64,000 nt of DNA from contig JAFXXB010000008.1 in assembly GCA_017542465.1 (NCBI GenBank), positions 17,321-81,320 of the forward strand, read 5' to 3'. This DNA comes from Bacilli bacterium (GTDB taxonomy: Bacteria; Bacillota_I; Bacilli_A; RF39; UBA660). Positions 32,601 through 59,000 of the stretch are shown one piece after another. How positions within the stretch are numbered: the stretch's first letter is position 1; each line of letters opens with the position of its first letter. The notes below the pieces were generated by a model. It had not been told where the DNA came from. It searched no databases and was given only the letters and a program-made list of their open reading frames with translations. Made by a program: the position numbers and the translations under genes.

Positions 32601-35600
32601 AACCATATGAACCTGATGAAAATTTTATTGGTTGGTCTTTGTTATATATCAAACCACCTGATGTATATAGTCTTGATCCATGATTAAGTAATATACCTGT
32701 TCCATATCTACTTGTTGTACTATTCTTAATAATACCATCATTGAATGTAAATTTGCCATTATTTAGAATAATTGATGGATTAGTTCCCTTTTCAATCAAG
32801 GTTAAATCATTGGCTACGATATTACCTACATTAAATAAGCTTTTTTCATTATTATTTTGAGTAATAATTATATCTCTAAATACTAATTGACCACTCTCAA
32901 AAACAAAATAATAATTCTTTCCACCCATTACAGTTGTAGATGCAAAACCAATTTCACTCTTATTATTTGAATAGAATTCAGTTAAATTATCTAAATCTTC
33001 ACCTATATAAAATTTAAAACTATCATCAGATAAAGTATTATAATCAATTTTTATCTCAACATTTCCAGAATAATCAGATAAATCAATTGGTAAATAACCA
33101 TGTCCAGTATAATATGTTTTTACAATGCCATTCTCATATGTATAATTATCACCAGATAATTTAGTGAATTTAGGAGGTATTGCTATACCATATATAGCGT
33201 TTGCACTTGCATTTTTACTACTCTTTGAGTAAACATTCATTGTTCCACCATTAATTTCTGAATATCCACCCTCATTATATAAAATATAACCATCTATATT
33301 CCCACCATCAAAGTCATTAATTTGATCATATGTTCCGTCATTTATATATAATTTACCAGTATAATTGTTTTTAAACACTCTAAGGAATCTATAAGTTCCC
33401 GTAGACATTTTCGTATTTTCTCCATTAACGGTCATAATATTATTATTTTCAAATAAAGCTTGCATACTATTAGCTGAAATATTAGATACATCTATATTAT
33501 TAACAGTTACATTACCATTATTTAATAATCCGCTTGTTCTATTAAATTCAAATATTATTTTACAATCACTTATATTTAATGTGTTATTATTAATAATTTG
33601 ATGAGATTTAATTAAACCTTTATTTTCACTATTATCAACTATATTTAATACTCCATTATTAATCAAACCAGCACCTAAATATAAGTTTTTACCATTTAAA
33701 TCAATAGTTATATTTTGACTGTTCTTAATTGTATTTGAATAGTTAGCCATTTCATATAGATTATCAGCTAATACTCTTAATGTCCCAGAATCACCAATAC
33801 TAGTTAATGCATTTCCTATAGAAGAATACATAATTCCTGATTCAACATGTAAAACATTATTTTGTTTTTCCTTAGTTTGTTTAATGAATTTATAATTATC
33901 ATCACTGCCATTCAATAAATAGTATGATTCTTCAATATCATTAATCAAAGTATATGATGCTTCATTTTTACCATATATAATTCCATCATAAAAATTAAAC
34001 ATAGCGGTTGGAGAATAGACACCATATCTTTCCGATTTAATATATCCGGCTTTATCATTATAAACACCATTTTGAGTTCCATAATATATAGTTCCAGAAC
34101 CTGTATTATATATACCATCTGTAACAAATTTAACATGATCAGTAGATTGATTAATAGAAACATCATTAAGATAAATAGGACCGCTACCAACATTATATAT
34201 TCCTCTAATAAGTGATAAAGGTGTTGGTTCAGAATCAAAGAATGAAGCTGCTTGTCCTGTTTCATTTATTGTAACTTGATTTAGTATCAATGTTGATTCA
34301 TTACTCTTTTTTATAGCAGAATATGGATTTATAGGAATCCAACGAGTTTTTGTAGTAATATTTGAATTCATTATGACATTATTAAAAGTTGTTAAACCTG
34401 TATTATCAATATTAATTTGTTGATATGCATTATGATATAATTCTTTTTCATAATTAAATGTAGAATCTGATACAGTTACTGGAAATCTAGATGTATTATT
34501 AAAATCTCCCGTAAACGTAACATGACTTGCGTTAAATGTATAATTATTTTCTACATTATTAATTATTCCACCATTAACATTTATATAAGCCAAATCTTTA
34601 ATGCCATAAGTAGCATCATATACATCTTCATTAGTTATTTGATCAATAGTACCATCTTCTATATTAATTTTTGATTTATAATTATATACCTCATCAATAG
34701 TTCCACCATTAATATAAATTAATCCTTGATTTCTAGCACCAACTCTAGCATTAAAAGTTCCGTTATTAATAGTTATTTTAGCATTATCATTATTGACTAC
34801 AGATTGAGAACAAGACAAAGTTCCACCATTGATTACGATATTGTCAGAAGCAGATGTATTTGATAAACAATAATATGCATTTGATAATTCTCCATCATTT
34901 ATAGTTAGATGACTAATGCTTGTTTCATATGGTATTAATTCAACTTCCTTAACGGTAAATGTGTTTTCACCTGGGCGTGCATCTTTTGTTAAAGGATAAT
35001 ATATATGTAGATATATCTTTCCATCTCTGACTATTCCATCTCTTTCAGCTATTTGATCTCCTCTAGTTTCCCATAAATCAGAACCACCAGTAACAGGATA
35101 GTCACTTGATGAAATATTAACTCGAGCAACTGCATGAACAGGAGCTACGTGATTATATGTTATTCTTGCTTTTACTTTAGTTCCATTTGGTATACCATTT
35201 GTATCTAATTCAACTAATGCATACGCATTTTTTCCTGGATCTAAACTATTATTTGATACTAAATAACCATCTTCATTTACATTAAAACCATAATCAAAAT
35301 CATATTGGGTTTTATTATAAAATGAAGTATATGTTTTTTTGGCACTTTCAACTAGATTATTAGTGTAATAATCATCATTCATTATAGAATAACCAGATGA
35401 ATCATAATAATATGTACAATGAGCTCCTTGAATTAAGCCACCATTTACAGTCACAGATCCACCATTATTTTCTAATGCACCTCGACATCCAGTATTTCCT
35501 CCTCTAGTTGAAATAATGGATCCTCCATTTATTGTGATATTTGCATCATGTTCATTATAAATAACTTGTGTAATCTCTGTTTGATATACACCATTATCTA

Positions 35601-43144: not shown

Positions 43145-43726
43145 TTACTGACCATCATTATTACGTGTTCTTTTTAATATCTTAACATTATCTTCTGTAA
43201 CATCTTTAAAGTTTACTTCTAATCCATCTATTCCACGTATATCTCTATAGTTTACACATTCTACTCCACATTCTTTAAACATAATTAATACACTTTCAAC
43301 ATCTTCTTTAATAGATTCACTCATTCTATAGTCTAAATAAACTACTTTTTTTACTCCTCTATGTATCATTTGTTTAGCACAGTTAGAACATGGAAATAAT
43401 GTAACATAACATGTAGAATTAGTATAATCTTTTTCTTTTAAACCATCTATTTCTCCATGAATAATATATGGATATTTAGTATTATGTAATTCCTTAGCTC
43501 CACCTTTAAACGGAAATGTATTTATATTCCATTTATAAGGTGAATGATTATATCCAAATGAAATGAATTCACCATCTTCACTTACATAACAAGCACCAAC
43601 TCTTGTTGATGGATCATTACTTCTAAGTGATGCTACTCTTGCAATCATCATCCAGTAATCATCTTCATTAAATTCTAATTCTCTAGCTCCACCTTTATAT
43701 TCATCTGATATTTTATAATCATTCAT
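43145..43726 (-). CDS. dCMP deaminase (ComEB-like) / cytidine-deoxycytidylate deaminase family
   Basis: Zinc-binding motifs HGE (HGEIDG) and PCxxC (PCSNCAKQM) with correct spacing. 193 aa. Confidence 0.6.
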   Translation of the reverse strand: MNDYKISDEYKGGARELEFNEDDYWMMIARVASLRSNDPSTRVGACYVSEDGEFISFGYNHSPYKWNINTFPFKGGAKELHNTKYPYIIHGEIDGLKEKDYTNSTCYVTLFPCSNCAKQMIHRGVKKVVYLDYRMSESIKEDVESVLIMFKECGVECVNYRDIRGIDGLEVNFKDVTEDNVKILKRTRNNDGQ

Positions 43727-44382
43727 CTTGCTTTACCTCTTCCTATGATGTGCTCTTTAATTATATCACGATATCTATCATTAAGTGATTTATAATGTTG
43801 TTCCTCTTCTTCAGGTGTTCTTTCTGCAAAGTACTTTTCAGCATCTAAATCATAACTAATACATTCTAGTATACCACCTTTTAAATTCACTCTTTTACAT
43901 TTATTAACAGTTAAAAGAAATTCTTCTTCCTCAATAGTATCTGATGTAACATTACCATTTTCATCTATTACACATACACCTGTGTAATAATGAGCTAAGC
44001 TTCTACCATTATATTCTTTTAATTTATTAATATAATAGTTTAATATCTCATCATCAGATAATCCTTCTTTTCCATTTACTCTTTTAACATATAAGCCTGG
44101 TTGTTCATCTTCTCTAAATTTATCTATATATAACCCTGAATCTTCTGCTATTGTTGGAATACCTGTAGCATCATAATAAGCTTGAGCTTTAATCGTTGCA
44201 TTTTCTTCTGCAGTTCTTCCATTTTCATCTACATCTATATGTACACCTAACATTTTAGGATTAACTAATTCTAATTCTTCAAAACAAGATAATCTATCTT
44301 GCATTAATTTAAATTTAAAATCATTTCCTGTGGCGAACAATAACTTCATCTTCTTCAACACCTTCCCAATAATCTTCATCAT
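43723..44382 (-). CDS. Ham1/RdgB-family non-canonical NTP pyrophosphatase (ITPase-like)
   Basis: LLFATGNDFKFK (RdgB has ATGNxGK), ENAxxKA and PTIAEDSGL...PGLY (RdgB has ADDSGL...PG). The true start is probably the internal Met (MKLLFATGN), removing most of the 62-nt overlap with the NUDIX gene. Confidence 0.5.
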   Translation of the reverse strand: MMKIIGKVLKKMKLLFATGNDFKFKLMQDRLSCFEELELVNPKMLGVHIDVDENGRTAEENATIKAQAYYDATGIPTIAEDSGLYIDKFREDEQPGLYVKRVNGKEGLSDDEILNYYINKLKEYNGRSLAHYYTGVCVIDENGNVTSDTIEEEEFLLTVNKCKRVNLKGGILECISYDLDAEKYFAERTPEEEEQHYKSLNDRYRDIIKEHIIGRGKAR

Positions 44383-44887
44383 TCAAGGGTAATTCAATAC
44401 CATCTTCTTCATCATATTCAACTATATCATTTTTAGTTGGAACATTTATTTTCTTTTTAGAAGGAAAATATCTATAACCAACTGTTTCCTTAAGTGCTTC
44501 TACTACTTTTATATCAGCTGGTAACCAATCTAATTCTTCTAAATCCTCTAATTCTAACCATATTAAGTTATCATGTTCTAAATGATTATTATCATGATAT
44601 ACAAAATTAATATCATTCTTTAATGTACATAGATATACATCCATATCAAGTACAAAATCAGGATAATCATATTTTACATTCATATAAGGACTAACATAAT
44701 AAAGATCTGCATTTAATTCTTCCTTTATTTCTCTAATTACTGCTCCTTTAGAAGTTTCACCATCTTTTATTTTACCTCCAGGAAACTCCCATTTACCTTT
44801 AAAATCACCATAGCCTCGTTGAGCCGCTAATATACATCCGTCTTTTCCTATAATAGCTGCTGCAACATAAATTGTTTCTTTCTTCAT
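44321..44887 (-). CDS. NUDIX hydrolase (MutT-like)
   Basis: Nudix box GGKIKDGETSKGAVIREIKEELNA (Gx5Ex7REUxEExGU). Confidence 0.7.
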   Translation of the reverse strand: MKKETIYVAAAIIGKDGCILAAQRGYGDFKGKWEFPGGKIKDGETSKGAVIREIKEELNADLYYVSPYMNVKYDYPDFVLDMDVYLCTLKNDINFVYHDNNHLEHDNLIWLELEDLEELDWLPADIKVVEALKETVGYRYFPSKKKINVPTKNDIVEYDEEDGIELPLNDEDYWEGVEEDEVIVRHRK

Positions 44888-44988
44888 TTTTTACCTCTCC
44901 ATTTCTTGTTTGCTAAGTTCATTATAAAATAGATAAGGTATATTGAAAAATGAATAATAGAAATAATAGATATTCCTTGCAGGAATAT

Positions 44989-45885
44989 CTACTTAATATC
45001 GTAATTTATATAATCTTCAATAAATCTCTTTGGAGCATTAGTTAAGAATCTTCTATTAAATACTAATACTATGTCAGATGTCGGTAATTCCTCGGCTACA
45101 TCGATAATCTTATAGTTATCATCGTTCTTAATTAAATCAGAAATTATATAACCTACACCTAAATCATTCTTAACTGCATTTAAAATAACTTCACTTGTAT
45201 GTATATTAATTACTTTACGTGGTTTTACATTATATTTAATAAATAATTCATTTAACATCTTTCTATTACTAGTTCCTTCAATTGGTAATACTAAAGGAAT
45301 ATCTTCTAAATCTTTAATAGATTTAATATTTTTATATTGATCATATACTTTACTATTACATATAAATGTATATTGAGTCTTAGTTAAATCTATTATTGTT
45401 AAATCCATATTATTTGTTTTAATAGGAGATGTATCAATTATAAAGTCTATTGAGTGTTTATTAATTAAATCTAATAATTGTCTTGTAGGACCACTTACTA
45501 AAGTTATCTCTATATTAGGATATTTCTTATGAAAATCTATAATCTTATCAAAGAAGAAGAATGATGCTATATGTGAAGGTAAACCGATATTTAATGTTCC
45601 TCTTTCTAAGTTTTCAGACTCTAACATTAATCTTTCAGCAGTTAATAAATTACCATATGATTTTTCAACATAATATAATAGTTCTCTTCCTTTTTCAGTT
45701 AATTCTATACCATTTGAATTTCTATAGAATAATTGAGTTTCTAATTCTTCCTCTAACTTTTTAATAGATTTAGATATTGCTGATTGAGTAGTATAAGTAA
45801 ATTCAGCAGCTTTAGAGAAACTACCATATTTAGCTACATCATAAAATACTTTATATAGATTTAGATTAATATTTCCTTTTAACAT
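44989..45885 (-). CDS. LysR-family transcriptional regulator (paralog A)
   Basis: 298 aa. N-terminal LysR HTH (LYKVFYDVAKYGSFSKAAEFTYTTQSAISKSIKKLE) and a C-terminal substrate-binding domain. Confidence 0.8.
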   Translation of the reverse strand: MLKGNINLNLYKVFYDVAKYGSFSKAAEFTYTTQSAISKSIKKLEEELETQLFYRNSNGIELTEKGRELLYYVEKSYGNLLTAERLMLESENLERGTLNIGLPSHIASFFFFDKIIDFHKKYPNIEITLVSGPTRQLLDLINKHSIDFIIDTSPIKTNNMDLTIIDLTKTQYTFICNSKVYDQYKNIKSIKDLEDIPLVLPIEGTSNRKMLNELFIKYNVKPRKVINIHTSEVILNAVKNDLGVGYIISDLIKNDDNYKIIDVAEELPTSDIVLVFNRRFLTNAPKRFIEDYINYDIK

Positions 45886-46373: not shown

Positions 46374-47003
46374 TTATCTCTTATATTCTAATACTTTTGT
46401 TTTTGCTAAATAATCTTGTAATGACATATTATCTTTATTAAACAAAAATATACATAATGCCGCTAATTCTATTATTAAAGTTATACCAAATATAGTAAAT
46501 ATTGGTAAGAATGCTGTGTTTACTGATAATACTCTAGGTAATATAATAGCAAATAATGTAAATATTGGATTAATAAATAATAATTGTGATCCTAATAATA
46601 ATGATCTAACAAATAAACTTATTATTCCAGGTTTAGTATTCTTTTCATTCACTACCTTAAGTTTTAAGAATACACATCCAAGCGTTCTTCCTTGATTAAA
46701 GAATGCAAATACTACAAAATATAAAAAGTATATACCTAAATATAATGCAAACTCATACACTTGTGATTTAATCAAATCGTAATATTCTTGTCCTGCATAA
46801 TCTTTAAGATAACTATATGCATCCTTTTGTTGAAAATATTCATCATAATTAATATTGGACATCTTAGATGTTACTGCTTCTCTATATCTATCAACATCAT
46901 CAGTATTAAAATTCAATATAGGTGAATTAATTATTAATGCTGATAAAAAACATAAGAATATCATATCAATTGTATATGCAATTATTCGTTTAAACTTTAA
47001 CAT
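46374..47003 (-). CDS. RDD-family-like integral membrane protein
   Basis: 209 aa, three to four TM helices. N-terminal K-R-IIAYTIDMIF pattern resembles RDD family proteins. Confidence 0.35.
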   Translation of the reverse strand: MLKFKRIIAYTIDMIFLCFLSALIINSPILNFNTDDVDRYREAVTSKMSNINYDEYFQQKDAYSYLKDYAGQEYYDLIKSQVYEFALYLGIYFLYFVVFAFFNQGRTLGCVFLKLKVVNEKNTKPGIISLFVRSLLLGSQLLFINPIFTLFAIILPRVLSVNTAFLPIFTIFGITLIIELAALCIFLFNKDNMSLQDYLAKTKVLEYKR

Positions 47004-47034
47004 ATAATCACCTAAATATATTATAACAAAAAAA

Positions 47035-47053
47035 TAAGAGTATTAAACTCTTA
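47035..47053 (-). terminator. stem-loop TAAGAGT-ATTAA-ACTCTTA plus T-run, sitting about 25 nt upstream of the RBS of the RDD-like gene; terminator or attenuator
   Basis: 7-bp stem followed by TTTTTTT on the minus strand, then TATAAT-like and AGGTGA sequences and the ATG at 47003. Confidence 0.4.
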
Positions 47054-47410
47054 TTTTCCCCTTTTTATTTCTTGTATACAATTAAATATATCAATTGTTA
47101 ATATAACTGTACAAAGATTTAAAAGAATAGTGTATTGTGCATATAATGCATTCTTTTGAAATTTATATGGTTTGTTTTGTAGTTAAGAAATTATTATTGG
47201 TCTATTATAGACTATAAGTAAGCTACATCAACAATTGATACCTAAAAAATTTCCCCTTTTTATTCTGTCCCCTTTTGACACCAACTTGAAAACATTTCCT
47301 TCAAGTTATTTGTTATTATATGCACATCTACTATTCTTGTAAAATACCAATTTTCTATACTATATACAACAATTATGAAATACTATAACTTATATTTATA
47401 TATAACATAA

Positions 47411-48319
47411 CTATTTGTTATCTTCTGAGTTTAAATACTTAGAAATAAACATCTTAGGAGCATCTGTTAAGTATTTATCTATATAACCTAAGTTAATTGT
47501 AACAGATGGTAATTCTTCTTTAATATCTAATACTTTAACTAAACCTGAATTAACATCTTTTGCTATTACATCTTCAAGTATATAACCAACACCTAAACCT
47601 TCAAGTATAGATGAAGCTATCATCTCAGATGTTTCAATTGATAATATATTTGTACATACTACATCTTTTTCTAGCATTAATTCATTTAATCTCTTTCTAT
47701 GAGATGAATGAGGTACTGGAAGTATTAAAGGAACATTTTCTAAATCTTTAATACTTTCAGCTTTAATATCTAAATCACTTCTACATGCAAATACATGATA
47801 TGACTTAGTTATTGGTTTAATCATTAATTCTCTTTCAGACTCTGTAATAGGAGAAGTATCTATTAAGAAATCTATTTCATGTTTATCTAATAATTCAACT
47901 AATTCTTTTGTTGATCTAGATATAACTGATACTTCTATATTAGGATAATCTTTATGGAATTTAGCTACTTTATTAAATAAGAAGAATGAAGCTATGTGTG
48001 AAGGACATCCAATAGTTAATTTACCCTTATCTAAACTTGTAGTTTCCATCATTTCTCTTTCACCTATTTTAAGTGAATTATATGCATCTTCTACATATTT
48101 TAATAAATCTTTACCTTTTTCTGTTAGAACCATACCATTTAATGTTCTATAGAATAAAGTAACATTTAAATCTTCTTCTAACTTTTTAATTGATCTTGAT
48201 ATAGCTGGTTGAGATATCATTAAGTTTTTAGATGCTAATGAAACTGAACCATAGTTAGCTACATCATAGAATATCTTATATAAGTTTAAGTTTAAATTAC
48301 TATTATACATGTCTTCCAC
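47411..48319 (-). CDS. LysR-family transcriptional regulator (paralog B)
   Basis: 302 aa. Clear paralog of 44989..45885 (NLNLYKIFYDVANYGSVS...PAISRSIKKLEE). Its start overlaps the 3' end of the upstream radical SAM gene by 17 nt. Confidence 0.8.
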   Translation of the reverse strand: MEDMYNSNLNLNLYKIFYDVANYGSVSLASKNLMISQPAISRSIKKLEEDLNVTLFYRTLNGMVLTEKGKDLLKYVEDAYNSLKIGEREMMETTSLDKGKLTIGCPSHIASFFLFNKVAKFHKDYPNIEVSVISRSTKELVELLDKHEIDFLIDTSPITESERELMIKPITKSYHVFACRSDLDIKAESIKDLENVPLILPVPHSSHRKRLNELMLEKDVVCTNILSIETSEMIASSILEGLGVGYILEDVIAKDVNSGLVKVLDIKEELPSVTINLGYIDKYLTDAPKMFISKYLNSEDNK

Positions 48320-49175
48320 CTCCTTTAGTTGGATATACTTTTAAATCATCATAAACATGTTCAACACCATTTTCAGATTTCTTTAATAATCCGTTTGGAC
48401 TGACTATTAAGTTATTATCTATATCTTCATAATCTCGAATAGATACATTTAAATAATTACTTGATAATCTATTATAATATTCTTGTATTTTCTTAAAATC
48501 TTCATCAGGAACTTCAAATATATTCTTATTTGTTATTGCAGCACCTCTTAATGCATAGAATCTTAATAATTTCCATTTTGCTATCTTATAATTTAATAAT
48601 CTTGAATATATATCTTTACCTACATTATCTAAGTTTTGATATTTACTATTCTCATCTTTTAATATTAATGTATTAATATTTATTTTTAATTGATTTTCAT
48701 CATATTTTTCTCTTATCTTTGGAATAATATCAAATAAATGCTTTGAAGAATCAATCCCACTTCCTTCAAGCTGATAATCTATATCTTCTCTACCTATTTG
48801 TTCATTATAATAAGTACTTGTTGAATCACATGAGAAAGTTATTTGATCTAAATATGGTAATATTTCATCCATATTATCTTCATTTAATAAATATCCATTT
48901 GTAACAATAGAACAAGAGAATCCTAAATCATGTGCTGCTTTAATTAATGGTTTAATACCATAATAGCCTAGAGGTTCTCCACCAGCAAAAGTAATCTTTT
49001 TAATAGGATAACCACCTAATCCTTCATTATATATACGATTAAGGATAGCTAAATTATCTTCTAAAGGTAATTCTTTTTCATTTAATTCTCTAAAACAGAA
49101 TTTACAAGTCATATTACATCTATTACTAATATTCCAGCAAAAAGAATCATACATATTTGTATCAATACTAGACAT
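48303..49175 (-). CDS. radical SAM enzyme with viperin-like motifs (candidate prokaryotic viperin, pVip)
   Basis: CX3CX2C cluster CNMTCKFCF, preceded by N-I-S-N-R. ITFAGGEP. SIVTNG. FSCDS...IGRE, which resembles viperin ISCDS...IGRG. C-terminal KWKLLRFYALRG (viperin RWKVFQCLLIEG) and VPDEDFKKIQEY (viperin IGDEEFERFLER). No auxiliary C-terminal Cys cluster. The probable true start is MSSIDT at 49175 with a G-rich RBS. Confidence 0.55.
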   Translation of the reverse strand: MSSIDTNMYDSFCWNISNRCNMTCKFCFRELNEKELPLEDNLAILNRIYNEGLGGYPIKKITFAGGEPLGYYGIKPLIKAAHDLGFSCSIVTNGYLLNEDNMDEILPYLDQITFSCDSTSTYYNEQIGREDIDYQLEGSGIDSSKHLFDIIPKIREKYDENQLKININTLILKDENSKYQNLDNVGKDIYSRLLNYKIAKWKLLRFYALRGAAITNKNIFEVPDEDFKKIQEYYNRLSSNYLNVSIRDYEDIDNNLIVSPNGLLKKSENGVEHVYDDLKVYPTKGGGRHV

Positions 49176-49307
49176 AATACCCCCCCTAACGAATTTATTG
49201 GTGTATATAATATAACAAAAAGTTATAAAAAGCAAATAAATTATAAGTATAAGTTATAGGAAAAATAGGCTTTTTTTAATAAAAATCAACATTTTTATCA
49301 TAAATGT

Positions 49308-49336
49308 TTGCATATTTTATCAATATTTGGTAAAAT
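49308..49336 (+). promoter_or_regulatory. sigma-70-type promoter for rpsT (TTGCAT-17nt-TAAAAT)
   Basis: Hexamers with a 17-nt spacer, 34 nt upstream of the rpsT ATG. RBS AAGGAAGGAG. Confidence 0.45.
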
Positions 49337-49369
49337 CTTATATGTATTTGAAGGAAGGAGAGAAACTTC

Positions 49370-49636
49370 ATGGCTAATATTAAGAGCGCTAAAAAATCTA
49401 TTAAGACAGACGCTAAAAGAACTGAAGCTAATAAATCAGTAAGATCTAAAATTAAGAATGATATGAAGAAAATCGAAGCTGCAGTAAAAGGAAATGATTC
49501 TAAGAAAGCTAATGCTGAATTAAAGACATTCATATCTGATATTGATACAGCTTGTTCTAAAGGAATTGTAAAGAAGAATACTTGTGCTAGAGAAAAGTCA
49601 AGATTAAATAAAAAAGTTAAAGAAATGAGTAAGTAA
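49370..49636 (+). CDS. rpsT: 30S ribosomal protein S20
   Basis: 88 aa. MANIKSAKKSIKTDAKRTE... is typical of S20. Strong RBS. Confidence 0.9.
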   Translation: MANIKSAKKSIKTDAKRTEANKSVRSKIKNDMKKIEAAVKGNDSKKANAELKTFISDIDTACSKGIVKKNTCAREKSRLNKKVKEMSK

Positions 49637-49684
49637 TCATTTCTTTTTTTATGGTTTATGATAGAATAAATATATGGTGATTAT

Positions 49685-50599
49685 ATGAAAAGAGTTATAT
49701 CTATAATTATTTGTATATCATTAATAGTATTAACAGTAGTATTTTTAAATAAAATAACTAATAGACTAGCATATTACTTCAAAGGAACTCCAAACGTTAA
49801 GTTGGAAGCAAAGAATCAATATGCTAAAGAAAAAGATTATAAATACGTACAAATAACTAACAATTTTACACCTTATAACTATCAAGAATTAATAAATGTA
49901 TTTTATACAATATTAGATTCTGGATATGAAAGATATACTTTCTATTGTCCAGATGAATATCAAGATTGTTTAAAGGATGTAGAATATATCAGTTCTCCTA
50001 AGAACACTGAATCATTAACAACAATTAGTAATTTTGTTCATCCATATAATAACTTTCAATCATTAAAGGTTAAATATGATACAGCTGGTGAAGTCACAGT
50101 TGAGGTAACACATTTATATAATAAAGATGAAATAGTTAAAGTATCAAATAAAGTTGATGCTATATGGAAAGAAATTATTAAAGATGACATGAAAGACTTA
50201 GATATTATATATGCTTTCCATGATTATGTAATAAATCATACTTCATATGATGAAGAATTTGATGAAAAGAAAGATGATAATAAATATGATTCAGCTAGAG
50301 CTATAGGTCCTCTATTTGAAGGTAAAGCTATTTGCTCAGGTTATACTGATATCATGGCAATATTATTAAATAAACTAGGAATAGATAATTATAAAGTAGC
50401 ATCTAATACCCATGTATGGAATGTATTCTATTATGATGGTAAATGGTGGCATATAGATTTAACTTGGGATGACCCAGTTACCAAAGATGGATCTAATAAA
50501 CTTGAACATACATTCTTTAAGATAGATACTGAAACATTAGAAAACTTTAAAATAGATAATCATAGTTTTAATAAATCAATTTATTTAGAATTAAAATAG
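49685..50599 (+). CDS. membrane-anchored transglutaminase-like (Cys-His-Asp) domain protein
   Basis: N-terminal TM. Catalytic-triad-like motifs CSGYTDIMAILL, NTHVWNVFYYDGKWWHID and LTWDD. Confidence 0.6.
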   Translation: MKRVISIIICISLIVLTVVFLNKITNRLAYYFKGTPNVKLEAKNQYAKEKDYKYVQITNNFTPYNYQELINVFYTILDSGYERYTFYCPDEYQDCLKDVEYISSPKNTESLTTISNFVHPYNNFQSLKVKYDTAGEVTVEVTHLYNKDEIVKVSNKVDAIWKEIIKDDMKDLDIIYAFHDYVINHTSYDEEFDEKKDDNKYDSARAIGPLFEGKAICSGYTDIMAILLNKLGIDNYKVASNTHVWNVFYYDGKWWHIDLTWDDPVTKDGSNKLEHTFFKIDTETLENFKIDNHSFNKSIYLELK

Positions 50600-52886: not shown

Positions 52887-54263
52887 TTATCTATGCATGC
52901 CTTTTTGTTCAGTTATATTAGAATCAACAGTATTATCAATTTCAGGATTATCAATTATTCCCTTTTCCTTTTGATATCTATCTTCAAACTCTTTATATAA
53001 CTCTTTATTATTTGAATAATCTATATTAGGATCATTTTCATCATAAATAAAATCAGCATCAAGAATGACTAAATCTCCTTCTTCTAGAATAGTATCTCCT
53101 CTTTTATCATCTAAACCTAATACCTCATCAGTTGGGTTTAAATTTCCTTGCCAGTGTATTATGTTTTCTTTATTTAATCTTCCAACATTTGATTCTTTAA
53201 TATCTGTCCATTTAAGACCTAAATCACGCAAGTTTTTAAATAATTGATATAGTTCTTCTTTACTTACTTTAGTACTTGTATCTACTCTCTCAGTTACTTC
53301 AACAAAAAACTTTTCATTATTATTCTCTAATTCTTTACGAAGTAAAGGAGCAATTATATATGGATTATTAGGAAAACTTTTTGTAGCTTTTCCACCTAGT
53401 TTTATAACTTTATCTCCAACCAATAATACACGAGATAAACCTCCACCATTATAGGTAATATCAGATAATTTTGCATTTTCATTTTTCTTAACCTCCAATA
53501 CTATTAATCTAATTATTTCTTTTAATGTTTGATCATTTATTTTTACAAGTTGTTCAGTTTCACAAAAAATAGAATCAATGGCTTTTTCTTCATTATTATC
53601 AATATATGCTTTTACTTTAGATAATGCATTAGGATTATCTTTAACAAAATTCATTAAACTATATAGATTTTGTGCATTTTCAATAAATAAATCTATATTA
53701 TCATACATCATTCGTTCATTATTTCCTTTATATTCAATAGAATTATATTGGATATCACATTTATTCTCAGCTAATATTTTCAAGAATTTGCCTTGATTAT
53801 CTTCATTTAGTCTATTTAACATTTGTGTGTAAAAGTCATTATTTAAATCCATAGTTGATAATACATTTAAAATATTTTCATCAATAAACTCATCAAATTC
53901 GTCATGTATACAGCCATACATATCGTTAAATATATACCCTATTCCATCTGGATATGGATATTTTTTTAATCCTTCAATAAACCTTTCTTTAAAATTAGGT
54001 TGTTTTAATAATATATCCGTATATGATAAAAGAATACCCATATTCGATGAAACAATATATGGAAGAATAACATCAAAATGATTTGCTATTATCTTAGCAT
54101 TTTGATTTCTAAATAAAGGATTATTTAGTTTTTTTCTTATGAAATCACTTAAATCCAAAAAATGATCATTATCAAAACCTGCAGATTCATTTTCAATGTC
54201 TTGTTGTCTTATATTTTCTGATTCATTAAGCAAATTCAATAATTGTCGTTCCATATTTTTCAC
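52887..54263 (-). CDS. hypothetical protein (458 aa) with C-terminal protein-kinase-like motifs
   Basis: Nt about 53034-53456 encode GGGLSRV (Gly-loop-like), VIKLGGK (beta3 Lys-like), WTDIKESNVG (D-x-K-x-x-N catalytic-loop-like) and LVILDADF (DFG-like). The spacing is atypical. Confidence 0.45.
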   Translation of the reverse strand: MKNMERQLLNLLNESENIRQQDIENESAGFDNDHFLDLSDFIRKKLNNPLFRNQNAKIIANHFDVILPYIVSSNMGILLSYTDILLKQPNFKERFIEGLKKYPYPDGIGYIFNDMYGCIHDEFDEFIDENILNVLSTMDLNNDFYTQMLNRLNEDNQGKFLKILAENKCDIQYNSIEYKGNNERMMYDNIDLFIENAQNLYSLMNFVKDNPNALSKVKAYIDNNEEKAIDSIFCETEQLVKINDQTLKEIIRLIVLEVKKNENAKLSDITYNGGGLSRVLLVGDKVIKLGGKATKSFPNNPYIIAPLLRKELENNNEKFFVEVTERVDTSTKVSKEELYQLFKNLRDLGLKWTDIKESNVGRLNKENIIHWQGNLNPTDEVLGLDDKRGDTILEEGDLVILDADFIYDENDPNIDYSNNKELYKEFEDRYQKEKGIIDNPEIDNTVDSNITEQKGMHR

Positions 54264-54328: not shown

Positions 54329-54751
54329 TTACTTATTCTCTTCTAATAGTTTAATTATTCCTCTATAAGGTAAAGTAGCACATGTTTTACGAGATGCTTG
54401 TTTATATGTTTCATCAAATACTAATGCTTCTTCAAAATTAGTATCATTATATGGTTCTTCATTAATCATATTCATAAAGTTTTTAACATATTTGATAGCA
54501 TCCTCTACATTCATACCTATCATATTTTTAATCATAATAGATGTTGATGCAGTTGATATTGCACATGCTTCACCAGAAAACTTAATATCCTTAATTATTC
54601 TATCTTCTATCTTCATATAGATATTAATATTATCTATACATGATTCATTGTTGCTATTTACTTTTAAATATCCATCTATTTCATTATCAACTTTATTATA
54701 AGGATTAGTATAATTATCAAATAGTATTTCTCTTTTAGTTTCTACATCCAT
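54329..54751 (-). CDS. sufU: SufU/IscU-like Fe-S cluster scaffold (SufE-like sulfur acceptor)
   Basis: 140 aa. Conserved Cys positions (GEACAIS ... KTCATLP). Immediately downstream of the cysteine desulfurase, with a start/stop overlap. Confidence 0.7.
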   Translation of the reverse strand: MDVETKREILFDNYTNPYNKVDNEIDGYLKVNSNNESCIDNINIYMKIEDRIIKDIKFSGEACAISTASTSIMIKNMIGMNVEDAIKYVKNFMNMINEEPYNDTNFEEALVFDETYKQASRKTCATLPYRGIIKLLEENK

Positions 54752-55959
54752 TATACTAACATCTCCTTCATTATTCTTTCTTTATCAGATAATAATTTTA
54801 CTACTTTATCTATATCTTCTTTATTATTATATAGATATAAAGATATTCTTATAGTATGATCAGTACCAATTACATTCTTTAATAATTTTGCACAATGATT
54901 ACCTGTTCTTACACATATCTTATATTTATTTAAATAATAACCTACATCTTGAGCGAATATATCATCTATATTAATAGCTATAATACCTGAATCAACCACT
55001 TTATTATAAACATGTATATAAGGTATATCTTTAACTTTATCTAAGAAGTATTCCTTTAATTCACATTCATGTTTATATATATTATCTATACCTATGTTAT
55101 TAATATAATTAATAGCTTCACCTAATCCTATAGCACCAGCTATATTTGGTGTACCTGCTTCTAGTCTTAAAGGCAATTCTTTTAATACTATTTCATTAGG
55201 AGTATCAAATGATACATTCATACCTCCACCTAATCTTGTAGGTTTAATCTCATTTAATAACTCTTTCTTTCCATATAATACACCTATTCCAGTAGGTCCA
55301 CATATTTTATGTCCAGAGAAAGCTAAGAAATCAACATCTAAGTCTTTTACATCTACTTTGATATGAGGTACACTTTGAGCACCATCTACAAGCACTTTAA
55401 TGCCTTTTTCATGTGCTAATGCACAAATATCTTTAATAGGTCTAATATCGCCTAAAACATTAGTTATTTGAGCTAATGAGATAACTTTAGTTTTATCTGT
55501 TATAACATCCTTTAAATTATCTATAGTTACATGATAATTATCATCTAATTTAATATATTTAATAACAATACCTAATTCATTAACTAGGTTAAACCATGGA
55601 AGTATTAAAGATGCATGTTCTGCTTCTGTTAATATAACTTCATCACCTTTATTTAAGATATTCTTAAAATATCCATTTATTACCATATTAAGTGAATCAG
55701 TTGTACCTGAAGTAAATACTATTTCATCATTTCTTGCACCAAGAAAAGAAGCAACTATTTCTCTTGCTTTATTATATTCACTTTCAGCTCTTTCAGCTAT
55801 ATCATATTCACCTCTATGAATATTAGCAGGATAATCTGAATAATATTCAGATATCTTACTTATTACACATTTAGGTTTTAATGCTGTAGCAGCCGAATCC
55901 AAATAACAATTATTAGATAGAACTTCAAAATCTTCTCTATTCATAATAATCCCTTCCAC
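54751..55959 (-). CDS. sufS: Cysteine desulfurase (SufS / class V aminotransferase)
   Basis: PLP-Lys motif FSGHKICGP. Active-site Cys in RTGNHCA. About 400 aa. The probable true start is MNRED (GGAAGG RBS) a few codons inside the listed ORF. Confidence 0.85.
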   Translation of the reverse strand: MEGIIMNREDFEVLSNNCYLDSAATALKPKCVISKISEYYSDYPANIHRGEYDIAERAESEYNKAREIVASFLGARNDEIVFTSGTTDSLNMVINGYFKNILNKGDEVILTEAEHASLILPWFNLVNELGIVIKYIKLDDNYHVTIDNLKDVITDKTKVISLAQITNVLGDIRPIKDICALAHEKGIKVLVDGAQSVPHIKVDVKDLDVDFLAFSGHKICGPTGIGVLYGKKELLNEIKPTRLGGGMNVSFDTPNEIVLKELPLRLEAGTPNIAGAIGLGEAINYINNIGIDNIYKHECELKEYFLDKVKDIPYIHVYNKVVDSGIIAINIDDIFAQDVGYYLNKYKICVRTGNHCAKLLKNVIGTDHTIRISLYLYNNKEDIDKVVKLLSDKERIMKEMLV

Positions 55960-56094: not shown

Positions 56095-59000
56095 TTATAA
56101 ATCAGCTTTATCTATTATTACAACTGGACGTATACCACTACTGTAATCATTAATATCACCATTGCTGAAGTAACCACCAGTATCAATAAGCCATATATAA
56201 GTATCGTCATGTGCCGATCCAAGCCAGAAAGTAGTATTAGTTATGAAACCAGTCGTTGGGCAATTCCATTCTTCATGGTCACAACCTATACTAGGATCTG
56301 TTACCTCATCATATGTTATTAAACGACTTGTTTTTATAGGAGCTCCATATGACTTTAGTATATTTTCATAATTACGTACATAGTAAGCAACACTATAACC
56401 TGGTGTTTCATAACCTAGATTATTAAAATCTGGTTCTGATCTATAATCTATATCATATATATCGTTACTATCACGTAACCCTCCATATTTTGATTTAATT
56501 CCACTTCCGTCTGACCAATAAAATGATGCAGCGAACGGAAGTGTACCATTCCATAATCCATTTGCAACTGCGCCTCTCACATCACTGCTTTGAACTCCAT
56601 ATCCTTCATCACTATCAGTATATCTTCCAATCTCAACAAGAGTACCAGACACCACTTCATTAATTGTTCCTACTTTTAAATTCCATTTAGAAAGTAAGAC
56701 TATATCGTTTCCGTCATATCTGATAAAGTTGAAACATTCAATTGTATTACCATTTATACATACTTCATCGCCAACTTCAAGATTATCCTTTGTTCTACCT
56801 GTAGGTAATACTATATTCGATTCATTATTATAACCTGCATATATAGTAGTATCATTAGTTATTTTTGTATTGTCAAAATCAAATAAAGTAGTATAAGTAT
56901 TATCTGTATACCAGTTATCAAATATGTAGCCTTCTTTTATAGGATCTGTAGATGGTCTTGTTACTTTTTCACCATATATAATTGTTTGACTTGATACTGA
57001 TGAACCAGCATCAGTATCAAAGGATACAGTAAACTCTGGCATTGTACCTATACGGAATGCAGGAGCAATACCGCTTGCATTGATGATATTGTAGCCGCGA
57101 TCAAGAAAACCTATATCCCTCGTGACGAAGAAACTGTAACTTTGGTCGGAGATAGCTGAACGGAGCCACCAATCTTGTGCTACGTTATTTAGATCCTTCT
57201 TTATTTTTTGATGATTGAATGGATTTGTGACATAATAATCCAATGTCCTCGTGTCTGTTGTTATGTCTTTTTTATTATCGGTTTCGGCATCGAAGCCTAC
57301 TTCTCTTGTTGATAATAGATATATTTTGTTCTTCGTTATATCTTCTTCGGTTATATTTGGCGAAATTCCATCTGGGCCGCTACCAGAAACTATAGAATAT
57401 GTCGGTATGATTACGCTTCTTAATTCGTTCGGTAGTTTGGTATAAAAATCGCCATTTAGGTATGTTATAACTTCTGTTGTTGACCATCCGCCTGTATTCG
57501 AATTTATAGCATTCATTCTGAGCGACGTAACTATATCGGCAAACTCTATTACCGTTCCACACGCTGTCTGCGAATATCCTTCAGTAGAGCATGCTTCTGG
57601 CGTGCTCGTGTTAGTAAGTCTCACTGTGTATGACTCCGGCACGGAATCATTATTCATGTCTATTTCTACTTCTTTTTCACAACCTACTGCATAATAACTT
57701 GAATCGCTTTCTAAATTATTTCTTATAGTAGTCCATGAATCAGTAGTAAATGTTTTACATGGTGAATCAAATTTAGCATATATCGTTGTATCATTAGTTA
57801 TTACTGTATTATCAAAATCAAATACAGTAGTATATGTATCATCTGTATACCAATTATCAAATGTATAACCTTCTTTTGTTGGATCTATTGTTGGTCTTGT
57901 AGCTTTAGCTCCATATGTAATTGTTTGACTTGTTACTGATGATCCTTCATCTGTATCAAATGATACAATATATTTAGGTTTTATTCCGATTCTAAATGCT
58001 GGTGTTACTTCACCAGTTGAATAATCTGCAGAGGCTACTGAACCGCCCATACCAAGAAAATAATTAGAATTTGAACTTTTTTGAGCAGTGCGCAACCATC
58101 CTAAATGAATTTTAAAACCAGGTAAATCCTTTAAAAGATAATAATCTAGAGTTCTCATCCCACTTTTTGTATCATAATTAAAATCATGACGACCTACTTC
58201 ACTCAACGCCAATACAAATACTTTATCATTAGCATTAGCAGATACTCCACCTTTTCCACTTCCTGAAACAACTGGATTTGTATCAATTATCACATTCTTT
58301 AAGTCATCTGAAAGACTATTATAAAATGTACTATTCAAATATGATCTCAAGGAAGACTCTTTCCATCCTCCATCATTCCAGTAGCTATTACTCATAGGTC
58401 TCGAGCCAATTTTTCTTGCAAATTCAATGACAAAACCACATCCAGTTTGTGAAATATCACTTGATGTATTACAATTATCATTTATTGTTGTATTTATAAG
58501 TCTTACAGGGTAAGTGGTATTATTAACCATTATTTCCTTTTCACATCCTACAGGATAATAAGAACTATCATTATTTAGATTAGAAACTATTTCATCCCAC
58601 GAATCTGTTGAGAATGTACCACATAAACTATTATATCTAGCATATAAAGTTACATCATCATTTAATAAATATGTTTCATCTATTTTAATTCCATCAGATA
58701 TTCCTGTATACCATCCATCAAATTCCATTGTTATTGGTGCTGTTGGAATTGGTAGTTCACCTATTTGTTCATTTTTGTTTACTGTTTTAGAAGTTGTTGT
58801 AACAATTCCACCATTGGCATCATATGTAGCTGTATATTCAACAGGCACTTCATCCTGATATGTACCTAATTTTATATACATATCTTTCATTGTTCCTACT
58901 AATATTCTTTGAGCAACATTAGCTTGTTCATTAGCAGGAGCTGCTCCAAACCATACATTCAATGCAAACTCTGGATTATATGATGATAAATCATTTAATT

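What the first reader, a model, noticed from the sequence alone, without database searches (positions are those of the whole stretch)
47411..49235. Candidate prokaryotic viperin (antiviral radical SAM) translationally coupled to a LysR regulator
The 290-310-aa radical SAM ORF carries, beyond the CX3CX2C cluster, the blocks that distinguish viperin-like enzymes (ddhNTP synthases). These are ITFAGGEP, SIVTNG, FSCDS...IGRE and the C-terminal extension KWKLLRFYALRG / VPDEDFKKIQEY. This extension aligns with viperin RWKVFQCLLIEG / IGDEEFERFLER, which contacts the nucleotide substrate. There is no auxiliary Fe-S Cys cluster (arguing against MoaA/SPASM enzymes). The ORF is far too long for NrdG. It sits between rpsT and a LysR gene whose start overlaps its stop by 17 nt. 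That partnership differs from the usual pVip plus nucleotide-kinase pairing. A chain-terminator nucleotide synthase under LysR control would be an interesting regulated defence or nucleotide-signalling module.
Basis: partly seen in the sequence, partly recalled or inferred. Interest (0 to 1): 0.75.

Follow-up and report, generated by a model that had tools for sequence, protein, structure and literature searches.

The report
Viperin-like radical SAM enzyme wedded to LysR
The gene is a real radical SAM enzyme whose nearest relatives are the antiviral viperins, but it lacks several viperin signature residues and belongs to an undescribed branch that is always coupled or fused to a LysR regulator, so it looks like an enzyme-plus-regulator switch working on nucleotides rather than a standard antiviral viperin.

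Summary
A 290-aa radical SAM gene (48303-49175, minus strand) overlaps a LysR gene (47411-48310) by 8 nt (ATGTATAA), not 17.

Viperin is the closest family by profile and by fold. NCBIfam viperin_w_prok scores 133.6 bits and PADLOC pVip gives E 5e-38; the next family scores 62 bits and MoaA about 41. The predicted structure matches mouse viperin with TM 0.70-0.78.

It is not a bona fide pVip:
- It scores below the curated cutoff of 180 bits.
- The viperin signature N-Y/W-H reads C-W-N.
- Other signature residues are replaced: K220 to N, N258 to A, E293 to R, Y302 to N.
- The viperin C-terminal PSKS/GGxYxW tail is absent.

It belongs to one clade in which every member with readable context has a LysR gene overlapping its 3' end or fused in frame. 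At least 28 fusion clusters of 556-581 aa exist. None of about 100 loci carrying weaker relatives has a LysR next to the enzyme.

In the window's lineage the pair sits in conserved housekeeping synteny (recD2, rpsT | rSAM-LysR, RDD, nusB) and is not found in viral contigs. Other lineages add CyaB-like CYTH, NUDIX, Ham1, phosphoribosyltransferase and nucleotide kinase genes.

LysR-type boxes flank the operon. A conserved promoter and a roughly 280-nt structured RNA-like element follow LysR.

Best reading: an autoregulated enzyme-regulator module acting on nucleotides. Function is unproven.

The parts
48303..49175 (-). Viperin-like radical SAM enzyme, 290 aa. Cluster Cys are C20, C24 and C27; GGEP is at 65-68. 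It carries the C-W-N signature at 13-15 in place of viperin N-Y/W-H.
47411..48310 (-). LysR-type transcriptional regulator, 299 aa (HTH_1 plus LysR_substrate). It is the orthologue of the C-terminal half of the fusion proteins.
   Evidence: 66 and 102 bits. (phmmer 349 bits to the C-terminal half of P0016)..
48303..48326 (-). Translational-coupling junction: GGAGG (48319-48323), the LysR ATG (48308-48310) and the radical SAM TAA (48303-48305). It also encodes the conserved C-terminal GGGRHV of the enzyme.
   Evidence: CATGTATAA conserved across loci.
49212..49257 (-). Two LysR-type T-N11-A dyads in the operon's own promoter region, with centres 31 bp apart. ATAAC-N5-GTTAT is perfect at 49212-49226 and has one mismatch at 49243-49257. 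The promoter-proximal dyad lies between a TTGC-type -35 and the -10.
   Evidence: conserved in 11 loci. (both perfect matches in the 64-kb window fall inside the module). (also kept upstream of CYTH in L029-31).
47385..47421 (-). Second pair of ATAAC-N5-GTTAT dyads. The one at 47407-47421 is perfect and overlaps the LysR stop codon. The one at 47385-47399 has one mismatch.
47315..47349 (-). Conserved promoter downstream of LysR: TGGTATTTTACAA (-35 TTTACA), a 17-nt spacer, then TATAAT.
   Evidence: 11 of 12 consensus matches. (one exact match in the window). (exactly one exact match in each of 18 clade loci, always just after LysR, and none in 107 other loci).
47028..47306 (-). Conserved non-coding transcript-like element of about 280 nt. 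It has a 5' hairpin, a 19-bp long-range helix, invariant G-poor loops and a terminator hairpin followed by a U-run. It travels with rSAM-LysR.
   Evidence: No Rfam match at E<=1.

Best explanation
The locus is an autoregulated enzyme-regulator module. It is not a classical stand-alone pVip.

What is shown:
- A divergent viperin-like radical SAM enzyme is made in fixed stoichiometry with a LysR-type regulator. In some lineages this is by 8-nt translational coupling; in others it is by in-frame fusion.
- LysR-type dyads and a conserved promoter flank the pair.

What is inferred:
- The enzyme keeps the SAM/[4Fe-4S] machinery and part of the viperin phosphate-binding set (R129, N168, K202). I infer that it performs radical chemistry on a nucleotide-type metabolite. 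The recurring partners fit this: CyaB-like CYTH, NUDIX, Ham1, phosphoribosyltransferase and nucleotide kinases.
- Because N77, H79, K220 and Y302 are replaced, the substrate or product probably differs from canonical NTP to ddhNTP conversion. A substrate with fewer phosphates is one possibility.
- The enzyme's substrate or product is the effector of the LysR partner.
- The regulator binds the two dyads in its own promoter, giving autoregulation. It also binds the dyads upstream of the conserved TGGTATTTTACAA promoter just downstream.
- That promoter drives lineage-specific cargo. In this window the cargo is a roughly 280-nt structured RNA or leader followed by the RDD and nusB genes. In other lineages it is nucleotide salvage or house-cleaning genes, or transporters.

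The chemistry, the ligand and the regulon are inferred, not shown.
For: 1. Closest family is viperin.
- 133.6 bits for viperin_w_prok, against 62 bits for the next family.
- PDB viperins at E 4e-23.
- TM 0.70-0.78 over 285 columns.

2. Clade membership.
- the window protein falls in one neighbour-joining clade with all the LysR fusions.
- 10 of 10 clade representatives score 102-146 bits.

3. Obligate LysR link.
- 21 of 21 loci with a strong radical SAM match (at least 223 bits) and readable downstream DNA have LysR overlapping or fused. None of the loci with weaker relatives has a LysR next to the enzyme. The only LysR hit among them is a 51-bit ORF 3.6 kb away on the opposite strand (L100).
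- at least 28 clusters of 556-581-aa fusions.

4. Nucleotide-centred partners.
- CYTH is adjacent in L026-31, L126-128, L129-131 and L133-136. Its best NCBIfam hit is CyaB at 53 bits.
- NUDIX or Ham1 is adjacent or nearby in the window and in L126, L129, L132, L135 and L137.
- A phosphoribosyltransferase plus a kinase occurs in L043 and L135.

5. Regulatory DNA.
- Conserved dyads and promoter.

6. Vertical inheritance.
- The synteny recD2 / rpsT | rSAM-LysR / RDD / nusB is kept while radical SAM identity falls to 33-45%.
- LysR is more conserved than the enzyme: 61-95% against 35-72% amino-acid identity.
Against: - No experiment or ligand prediction was possible. The effector of the LysR is unknown.
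- Co-transcription or fusion with a regulator does not by itself prove that the enzyme makes the ligand.
- The conserved downstream promoter is missing in the more distant fusion lineages.
- Cargo genes differ widely between lineages.
- The window itself has no CYTH within 64 kb.
- Kinase and phosphoribosyltransferase neighbours in two lineages resemble the pVip-plus-kinase logic, so a defence role is not excluded.
- The dyads are AT-rich. The pattern as a whole is no more frequent in the window than chance predicts; only its clustering and cross-locus conservation argue for function.
Confidence: 0.5

Rival explanations
1. It is a LysR-controlled antiviral viperin. On this view the enzyme makes a chain-terminating ddh-nucleotide. 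LysR keeps it off until infection or stress. NUDIX, Ham1 and CYTH enzymes protect the host from the product or process it.
For: - Viperin is the best profile and fold match.
- R194, N222, K247, S/A124 and the GGEP, TNG and SxDS blocks are kept.
- The enzyme evolves faster than its regulator, as arms-race genes do.
- A guanylate kinase or dTMP-kinase-like gene plus a phosphoribosyltransferase sits next to the module in L135 and L043. This recalls the viperin-kinase pairing.
- The nearest non-LysR relatives sit beside VirD4-like and serine-recombinase genes.
- Viperin-related but distinct radical SAM enzymes can be defensive, as with Ophion OpnA (10.1101/2025.09.30.679545).
Against: - The score is below the curated viperin cutoff for the window protein and for 10 of 10 clade representatives.
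- N77, H79, K220, N258, E293 and Y302 are replaced, and the C-terminal extension is missing.
- In this lineage the locus is in strictly conserved housekeeping synteny, with no defence genes nearby.
- It is absent from IMG/VR.
- In-frame fusion to a DNA-binding regulator is odd for a bulk producer of a nucleotide poison.
Confidence: 0.22
2. It is a housekeeping or biosynthetic nucleotide- or nucleobase-modifying enzyme. Examples would be salvage or repair of a modified purine or pyrimidine, or synthesis of a nucleoside natural product. On this view LysR is only an ordinary pathway regulator that senses some unrelated metabolite.
For: - The locus behaves as a core, vertically inherited gene pair.
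- One lineage has a YhhQ/Vut_1-type transporter, a phosphoribosyltransferase, a guanylate kinase and Ham1 as neighbours.
- Another has a phosphoribosyltransferase, a second radical SAM gene, a kinase and a DegT aminotransferase.
- Fold hits include the nucleoside- and sugar-modifying enzymes BlsE and DesII, at lower scores.
Against: - An ordinary pathway regulator would not be expected to stay overlapped or fused to one enzyme in all 21 of 21 readable loci and in at least 28 fusion clusters, while every other neighbour changes.
- No curated biosynthetic family comes near the viperin score.
Confidence: 0.18
3. The radical SAM domain is mainly a sensor. Its oxygen-labile [4Fe-4S] cluster and SAM site would report redox, iron-sulfur or SAM status to the attached LysR, with little or no turnover of a second substrate.
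For: - Cluster Cys and GGE are essentially invariant, while substrate-contact positions such as K120, K220, R245 and Y302 drift within the clade.
- The domain is fused to a DNA-binding protein.
- NifU/IscS genes lie directly upstream in L137 and about 5 kb away in the window.
Against: - R194, N222, W246 and K247 equivalents stay conserved, which suggests that a phosphate-bearing ligand is still bound.
- Recurrent CYTH, NUDIX and Ham1 partners point to real nucleotide chemistry.
Confidence: 0.1

Closest known systems
Prokaryotic viperins (pVips; NCBIfam NF038283, PADLOC pVip) and eukaryotic viperin RSAD2 (TIGR04278; PDB 5VSL, 6Q2P)
   Same: - Best profile and fold match.
- Same partial-barrel radical SAM core, with CX3CX2C, GGEP, TNG, SxDS, GR(G), N(T/S)V and (R/K)WK blocks.
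- No auxiliary cluster.
- About 270-290 aa.
- Nucleotide-metabolism genes are often nearby.
   Different: - The score is below the curated cutoffs.
- N-Y/W-H reads C-W-N.
- K220 to N, N258 to A, E293 to R, Y302 to N.
- The C314-K319 loop and the PSKS...GGxYxW tail are absent.
- It is obligately coupled or fused to a LysR regulator.
- Here it sits in conserved housekeeping synteny, not in a defence island.
- The partners are hydrolases (CYTH, NUDIX, Ham1) more often than kinases.
Enzyme-linked transcription factors that make or process their own effector. Examples recalled from general knowledge are BirA (biotin ligase and repressor), NadR and PutA.
   Same: A catalytic domain and a DNA-binding regulator sit in one polypeptide or one coupled unit. 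This suggests that the enzyme reaction sets the regulator's state.
   Different: - No known example recalled or found in the held paper library joins a radical SAM domain to a LysR-type regulator.
- The analogy is functional only. It was not tested.
LysR-type regulators with an adjacent regulated small RNA. OxyR/OxyS and GcvA/GcvB are recalled from general knowledge.
   Same: A LysR gene is next to a separately promoted, terminator-ended non-coding transcript-like element, with LysR-type dyads upstream.
   Different: - Here the RNA lies downstream in tandem rather than divergent, and is about 280 nt long.
- It has no Rfam family.
- Its transcription and its regulation by LysR are unproven.
Ophion OpnA (radical SAM plus PHP plus phosphoribosyltransferase defence system; bioRxiv 10.1101/2025.09.30.679545)
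   Same: - A radical SAM enzyme related to pVips but phylogenetically distinct from them.
- Phosphoribosyltransferase genes are neighbours in some lineages of the present clade (L043, L135).
   Different: - There is no PHP partner here.
- Ophion has no LysR partner.
- Homology to OpnA was not tested.

Membership tests
Viperin / pVip (ddhNTP synthase) | Radical SAM core with CX3CX2C and a GGE SAM-binding motif | tested here: met
   C20, C24 and C27; G65-G66-E67-P68.
Viperin / pVip (ddhNTP synthase) | Score at or above the curated family cutoff | tested here: not met
   NF038283 gives 133.6 bits against a cutoff of 180. TIGR04278 gives 45.7 bits against 450. Ten of ten clade representatives score 102-146 bits. 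A true pVip control, P0104, scores 255 bits.
Viperin / pVip (ddhNTP synthase) | N-Y/W-H motif before the cluster (mouse N77, H79) | tested here: not met
   The window protein has C13-W14-N15. The motif is N-[YW]-H in the mouse and T. virens enzymes and in four true pVips.
Viperin / pVip (ddhNTP synthase) | Nucleotide and phosphate pocket residues (mouse K120, S124, R194, K220, N222, R245, K247) | tested here: inconclusive
   Kept: K60, A64, R129, N168, K202. Changed: K220 to N166, R245 to K200. K120 and K220 vary across the clade. The roles of K120, R194 and R245 are recalled from memory.
Viperin / pVip (ddhNTP synthase) | C-terminal extension: S301-Y302, the beta-8 loop (C314/K319, or Asn/Asp in pVips), PSKS and the GGxYxW tail | tested here: not met
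   Y302 is N255 here and is never Y in 22 clade members. The tail is absent, and the protein ends after a beta-hairpin. Loop roles are taken from 10.1101/2023.09.13.557418.
Viperin / pVip (ddhNTP synthase) | Viperin fold | tested here: met
   AF2 model with pLDDT 87.8. The best PDB matches are 5vsl and 6q2p at TM 0.70-0.78. SuiB, DesII and MoaA are at or below about 0.65.
Viperin / pVip (ddhNTP synthase) | Defence-island or mobile context, or a nucleotide-kinase partner | tested here: not met
   The window lineage shows housekeeping synteny. The clade is not in IMG/VR. Kinases occur only in L043 and L135.
Viperin / pVip (ddhNTP synthase) | Produces ddh-nucleotides and protects against phage | not testable with these tools
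   Needs biochemistry and phage assays.
MoaA (GTP 3',8-cyclase) | Family-level score and a C-terminal auxiliary [4Fe-4S] cluster | tested here: not met
   40-41 bits against cutoffs of 284-325. There is no Cys after residue 116.
NrdG-type activases and SPASM/twitch maturases | Family-level score, or a Cys-rich C-terminal domain | tested here: not met
   NrdG2 gives 28 bits against 131. SPASM families give 62 bits or less against cutoffs of 300-650. There are no extra Cys.
LysR-type transcriptional regulators (the partner gene) | N-terminal HTH_1 plus a LysR_substrate effector domain | tested here: met
   66 and 102 bits. No NCBIfam equivalog reaches its cutoff.

The most novel reading that the evidence does not exclude
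A radical SAM enzyme derived from the viperin lineage has been turned into the dedicated signal generator, or signal converter, of a LysR regulator. A radical-made modified nucleotide, possibly processed by a CyaB-like CYTH enzyme, would then act as an intracellular messenger. This messenger would switch a conserved promoter that, in this lineage, drives a previously undescribed structured RNA of about 280 nt. That would be a new kind of nucleotide signalling: a one-component system with its own radical SAM ligand synthase.
Probability: 0.3. Interest if true: 0.85.

Novelty: new variant of a known kind. Interest (0 to 1): 0.62.

Why it matters
**Evolution of viperins.** If the reading is right, the viperin scaffold, known only for making antiviral chain terminators, has a sister branch recruited into gene regulation. 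That bears on how immune enzymes and housekeeping signalling exchange parts.

**A tractable system.** Radical SAM-LysR fusion proteins give a one-protein system in which to find the product and the effector.

**Annotation.** PADLOC-type pVip profiles hit this protein at E 5e-38. Clade members could therefore be miscalled as defence genes in gut and rumen Bacilli and Christensenellales genomes.

**An unclassified RNA.** The conserved RNA-like element next to the pair is a candidate new non-coding RNA with a clear genetic handle.

Tried and rejected
- **MoaA, NrdG and SPASM readings.** Rejected on scores and on the lack of extra Cys.
- **Known RNA families.** Rfam found nothing at gathering threshold on the whole window or at E<=1 on 46900-49700. 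ARAGORN found no tRNA or tmRNA.
- **CYTH in the window.** None was found among the window's ORFs.
- **GTDB species genomes.** The scan returned only distant relatives (32% identity or less), none with an adjacent LysR.
- **IMG/VR.** Scans for the protein clade and for the RNA motif found no clade member.
- **Covariation in the RNA helix.** All variation is one-sided, through G-U, so the shuffle control is uninformative.
- **AFDB Foldseek.** The library was not available.
- **Literature.** Searches for viperin+LysR and for radical SAM+LysR+CYTH gave nothing relevant. The original pVip paper (Bernheim 2021) could not be read, so I could not check whether it noticed this clade.
- **Alignment A2.** It was too diverse for a metagenome scan, so A3 was used instead.
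Full report
**1. Observation**

The window is low in G+C (about 26%). It matches a metagenome-assembled genome labelled 'Bacilli bacterium', whose identical-length protein MBR6072859.1 is annotated only as 'radical SAM protein'.

On the minus strand, a radical SAM ORF (48303-49235 from a TTG start) and a LysR ORF (47411-48319 from a GTG start) overlap.

The DNA shows better start codons.
- The enzyme starts at ATG 49175, after a G-rich ribosome-binding site. This gives 290 aa, as in database proteins P0001 and P0008.
- LysR starts at ATG 48310, 8 nt after GGAGG.
- The true overlap is therefore the 8-nt ATGTATAA.

The protein has only six cysteines, none after residue 116. rpsT lies divergently upstream. 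Pfam confirms Radical_SAM for the enzyme, and HTH_1 plus LysR_substrate for the regulator.

**2. Which family**

Viperin is clearly the nearest family by sequence.

| Model | Score | Curated cutoff |
|---|---|---|
| NCBIfam viperin_w_prok (NF038283) | 133.6 bits (E 8e-39) | 180 |
| Next best family (W_rSAM_matur) | 62.5 bits | 380 |
| MoaA models | about 40 bits | 284-325 |
| NrdG2 | 28 bits | 131 |
| Eukaryotic viperin (TIGR04278) | 45.7 bits | 450 |

The PADLOC pVip models give E 5e-38. A profile of the five closest homologues hits PDB viperins first, at E 4e-23.

The fold agrees. An AlphaFold2 model (pLDDT 87.8, pTM 0.87) matches mouse viperin 5VSL/6Q2P best. TM scores are 0.70-0.78 over about 285 columns. 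T. virens and N. vectensis viperin-like enzymes come next. SuiB, DesII and MoaA score lower.

So the resemblance is real, but the viperin score is below the curated cutoff.

**3. Residue test**

I verified the mouse viperin sequence against PDB chain 5vsl_A (chain index + 44 = native number). I rebuilt the T. virens sequence. I then aligned both with four true pVips (the P0104 clade; P0104 scores 255 bits), 22 members of the window's clade and 14 other relatives.

True viperins share these residues: N77-[YW]-H79, K120, N122, R194, K220, N222, R245-W-K247, Q250, G256-x-N258, E293 and S301-Y302.

The window protein compares as follows.
- Replaced: C13-W14-N15 for N77-Y-H79; T62 for N122; N166 for K220; K200 for R245; R205 for Q250; A213 for N258; R247 for E293; N255 for Y302.
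- Kept: K60, R129, N168, W201 and K202.

Within the clade:
- The K120 position varies freely.
- The K220 position is E, D, N or Q in the window's sub-branch, and K in most fusions.
- The Y302 position is never Tyr.

The viperin C-terminal tail (PSKS...GGxYxW) has no counterpart. The protein ends after a beta-hairpin.

Basis for the residue roles:
- S124, K220, N222, K247 and K299 line the CTP-centred pocket of 6Q2P, according to a docking study (PMC11970327).
- C314 and K319, or a conserved Asn in pVips, set base selectivity (10.1101/2023.09.13.557418).
- The roles of N77, H79, K120, R194, R245 and Y302 are from my memory of the structural papers.

It is therefore partly met.

**4. The clade and its defining trait**

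An exhaustive profile search of 1.84 billion representative proteins found 121 proteins at E<1e-30.

Six of the best hits are proteins of 561-564 aa with the radical SAM domain at the N terminus, fused to a complete LysR (HTH_1 + LysR_substrate). Their C-terminal halves are close to the window's LysR, up to 349 bits.

In a neighbour-joining tree, the window protein and all fusions fall in one clade. Ten of ten clade representatives score 102-146 bits on the pVip model. Neighbouring clades also carry C-W-N, but they keep K220, R245 and Y302, and they score 111-170 bits.

A second search found at least 28 clusters of full-length fusions (556-581 aa, 40-89% identity). One is named 'LysR substrate-binding domain-containing protein [Christensenellales bacterium]'.

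Across the 111 loci then in hand, the split is clean.
- 22 loci carry a radical SAM gene scoring at least 223 bits on the clade profile. In 21 of them the downstream DNA is readable, and all 21 have LysR overlapping the 3' end or fused.
- None of the loci with weaker relatives has a LysR next to the enzyme. The only LysR hit among them is a 51-bit ORF 3.6 kb away on the opposite strand (L100).

The junction CATGTATAA is conserved at the nucleotide level. Two loci use GTG...TAG instead. This junction explains the conserved C-terminal GG(G/E)RHV of the unfused enzymes: it is encoded by the LysR ribosome-binding site and start codon.

**5. Context**

In the window's lineage the synteny is conserved. 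The order is recD2, a transglutaminase-like gene, and rpsT on one side, then rSAM-LysR, an RDD-family gene and nusB on the other. This order is kept while radical SAM identity falls to 33-45%.

LysR is more conserved than the enzyme: 61-95% against 35-72% amino-acid identity. No clade member was found in IMG/VR.

Neighbours in other lineages:
- A CYTH gene lies directly upstream in L026-31, L126-128 and L133-136, and nearby in L129-131. Its best NCBIfam hit is class IV adenylate cyclase CyaB, at 53 bits against a cutoff of 57.95.
- NUDIX follows the fusion in L126 after a 46-nt gap, and occurs in L129 and L137.
- Ham1 occurs in L132 and L135.
- L135 has a Vut_1 transporter, a phosphoribosyltransferase, a guanylate kinase and Ham1.
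- L043 has a phosphoribosyltransferase, a second radical SAM gene, a dTMP-kinase-like gene and a DegT aminotransferase.

The window itself has a LysR paralogue followed by NUDIX, Ham1 and a dCMP-deaminase-like gene at 43145-45885.

The recurring theme is nucleotide (tri)phosphate chemistry.

The nearest C-W-N relatives without LysR sit beside VirD4-like or serine-recombinase genes.

**6. Regulatory DNA**

*Upstream of the operon.* Two ATAAC-N5-GTTAT dyads, each containing T-N11-A, lie 31 bp apart (49212-49226 and 49243-49257).
- The first sits between a TTGC-type -35 and the -10.
- Both are conserved in 11 loci.
- They are also kept upstream of CYTH in L029-31.

*At the LysR stop codon.* A second pair lies at 47407-47421 and 47385-47399.

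*Statistics for the dyads.* Both perfect matches in the 64-kb window fall inside the module. The pattern as a whole is no more frequent than chance predicts.

*Downstream promoter.* Downstream of the second pair lies TGGTATTTTACAA-N17-TATAAT.
- The exact 13-mer occurs once in the window.
- It occurs exactly once in each of 18 clade loci, always just after LysR, including the fusion loci L026-28 and L043.
- It occurs in none of 107 other loci.
- It is absent from the more distant fusion lineages.

**7. Mechanism**

*Shown:*
- A viperin-like radical SAM enzyme with an altered pocket.
- Obligate coupling or fusion to a LysR regulator.
- Conserved dyads and a conserved promoter.
- Nucleotide-enzyme partners.
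- Vertical inheritance.

*Inferred:*
- The enzyme acts on a nucleotide-type metabolite.
- Its substrate or product is the LysR effector.
- LysR autoregulates the operon and controls the downstream promoter.

I give this reading a probability of 0.5.

*Rivals:*
- A LysR-controlled antiviral pVip (0.22). It is favoured by family resemblance, by the fast-evolving enzyme and by kinase neighbours in two lineages. It is disfavoured by the failed signature tests and the housekeeping context.
- An ordinary nucleotide-modifying pathway enzyme with a conventional regulator (0.18).
- A cluster- or SAM-sensing domain (0.10).

**8. Novelty**

Full-text searches found no paper linking viperin or radical SAM enzymes with LysR or CYTH. 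The broad viperin survey by Shomar et al. does not mention regulators or CYTH. Public annotations of clade members are generic.

I file it as a new variant of a known kind. It is a viperin-like branch defined by a radical SAM-LysR architecture.

Noticed in passing
window 47004-47410 (minus strand); also L022-25, L029-30, L032-34, L036-37, L040-42: The spacer after LysR is as conserved as coding DNA: 0.67-0.98 nucleotide identity, against 0.57-0.78 for the radical SAM gene. It has its own promoter. Its predicted features are a 5' hairpin, a 19-bp long-range helix in which all 17 one-sided changes keep pairing through G-U, invariant G-poor loops, and a terminator hairpin whose stem changes in a compensatory way. 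It follows LysR even in L029, where the downstream genes differ. Rfam gives no hit at E<=1. The fold z-score is -3.4. It is a candidate new non-coding RNA or leader.
   Followed up: partly
window 43145-45885 (minus strand): A second LysR, 298 aa and a paralogue of the module's LysR, is followed tightly by a NUDIX gene, a Ham1/ITPase-like gene and a dCMP/cytidine-deaminase-like gene. This looks like a second regulator-plus-nucleotide-sanitising operon, lying just past nusB. The same LysR-NUDIX-Ham1 order is seen in L024.
   Followed up: partly
P0032, P0042, L054/L056, L001-2, L050-52: A wider set of sub-threshold viperin-like radical SAM proteins carries C-W-N in place of N-Y/W-H. They score 111-170 bits on the pVip model. 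Some are fused to a PfkB kinase, a receiver-like domain or a BpsA_C-like domain. L056 has a CYTH gene nearby. Several sit next to VirD4-like or serine-recombinase genes.
   Followed up: partly
window 54329-55959; L137 3297-4869: NifU-like and probable cysteine-desulfurase genes lie about 5 kb from the module in the window. In L137, Rrf2-IscS-NifU lies directly upstream of a radical SAM-LysR fusion. This may be a link to iron-sulfur cluster supply, or it may be coincidence.
   Followed up: no
window 26695-37665 and 56095-61869 (minus strand): Two very large ORFs of 3656 aa and 1924 aa. They were not examined.
   Followed up: no
window 52887-54263 (minus strand): A 458-aa ORF between recD2 and the NifU-like gene has no Pfam match.
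   Followed up: no
L043 4440-4530; L026 9900-9930: In two fusion lineages the conserved TGGTATTTTTCAA promoter is followed by a strong ribosome-binding site and a tiny ORF before the cargo genes. The ORF is 19 aa in L043 and reads MKK-stop in L026. These may be leader peptides.
   Followed up: no
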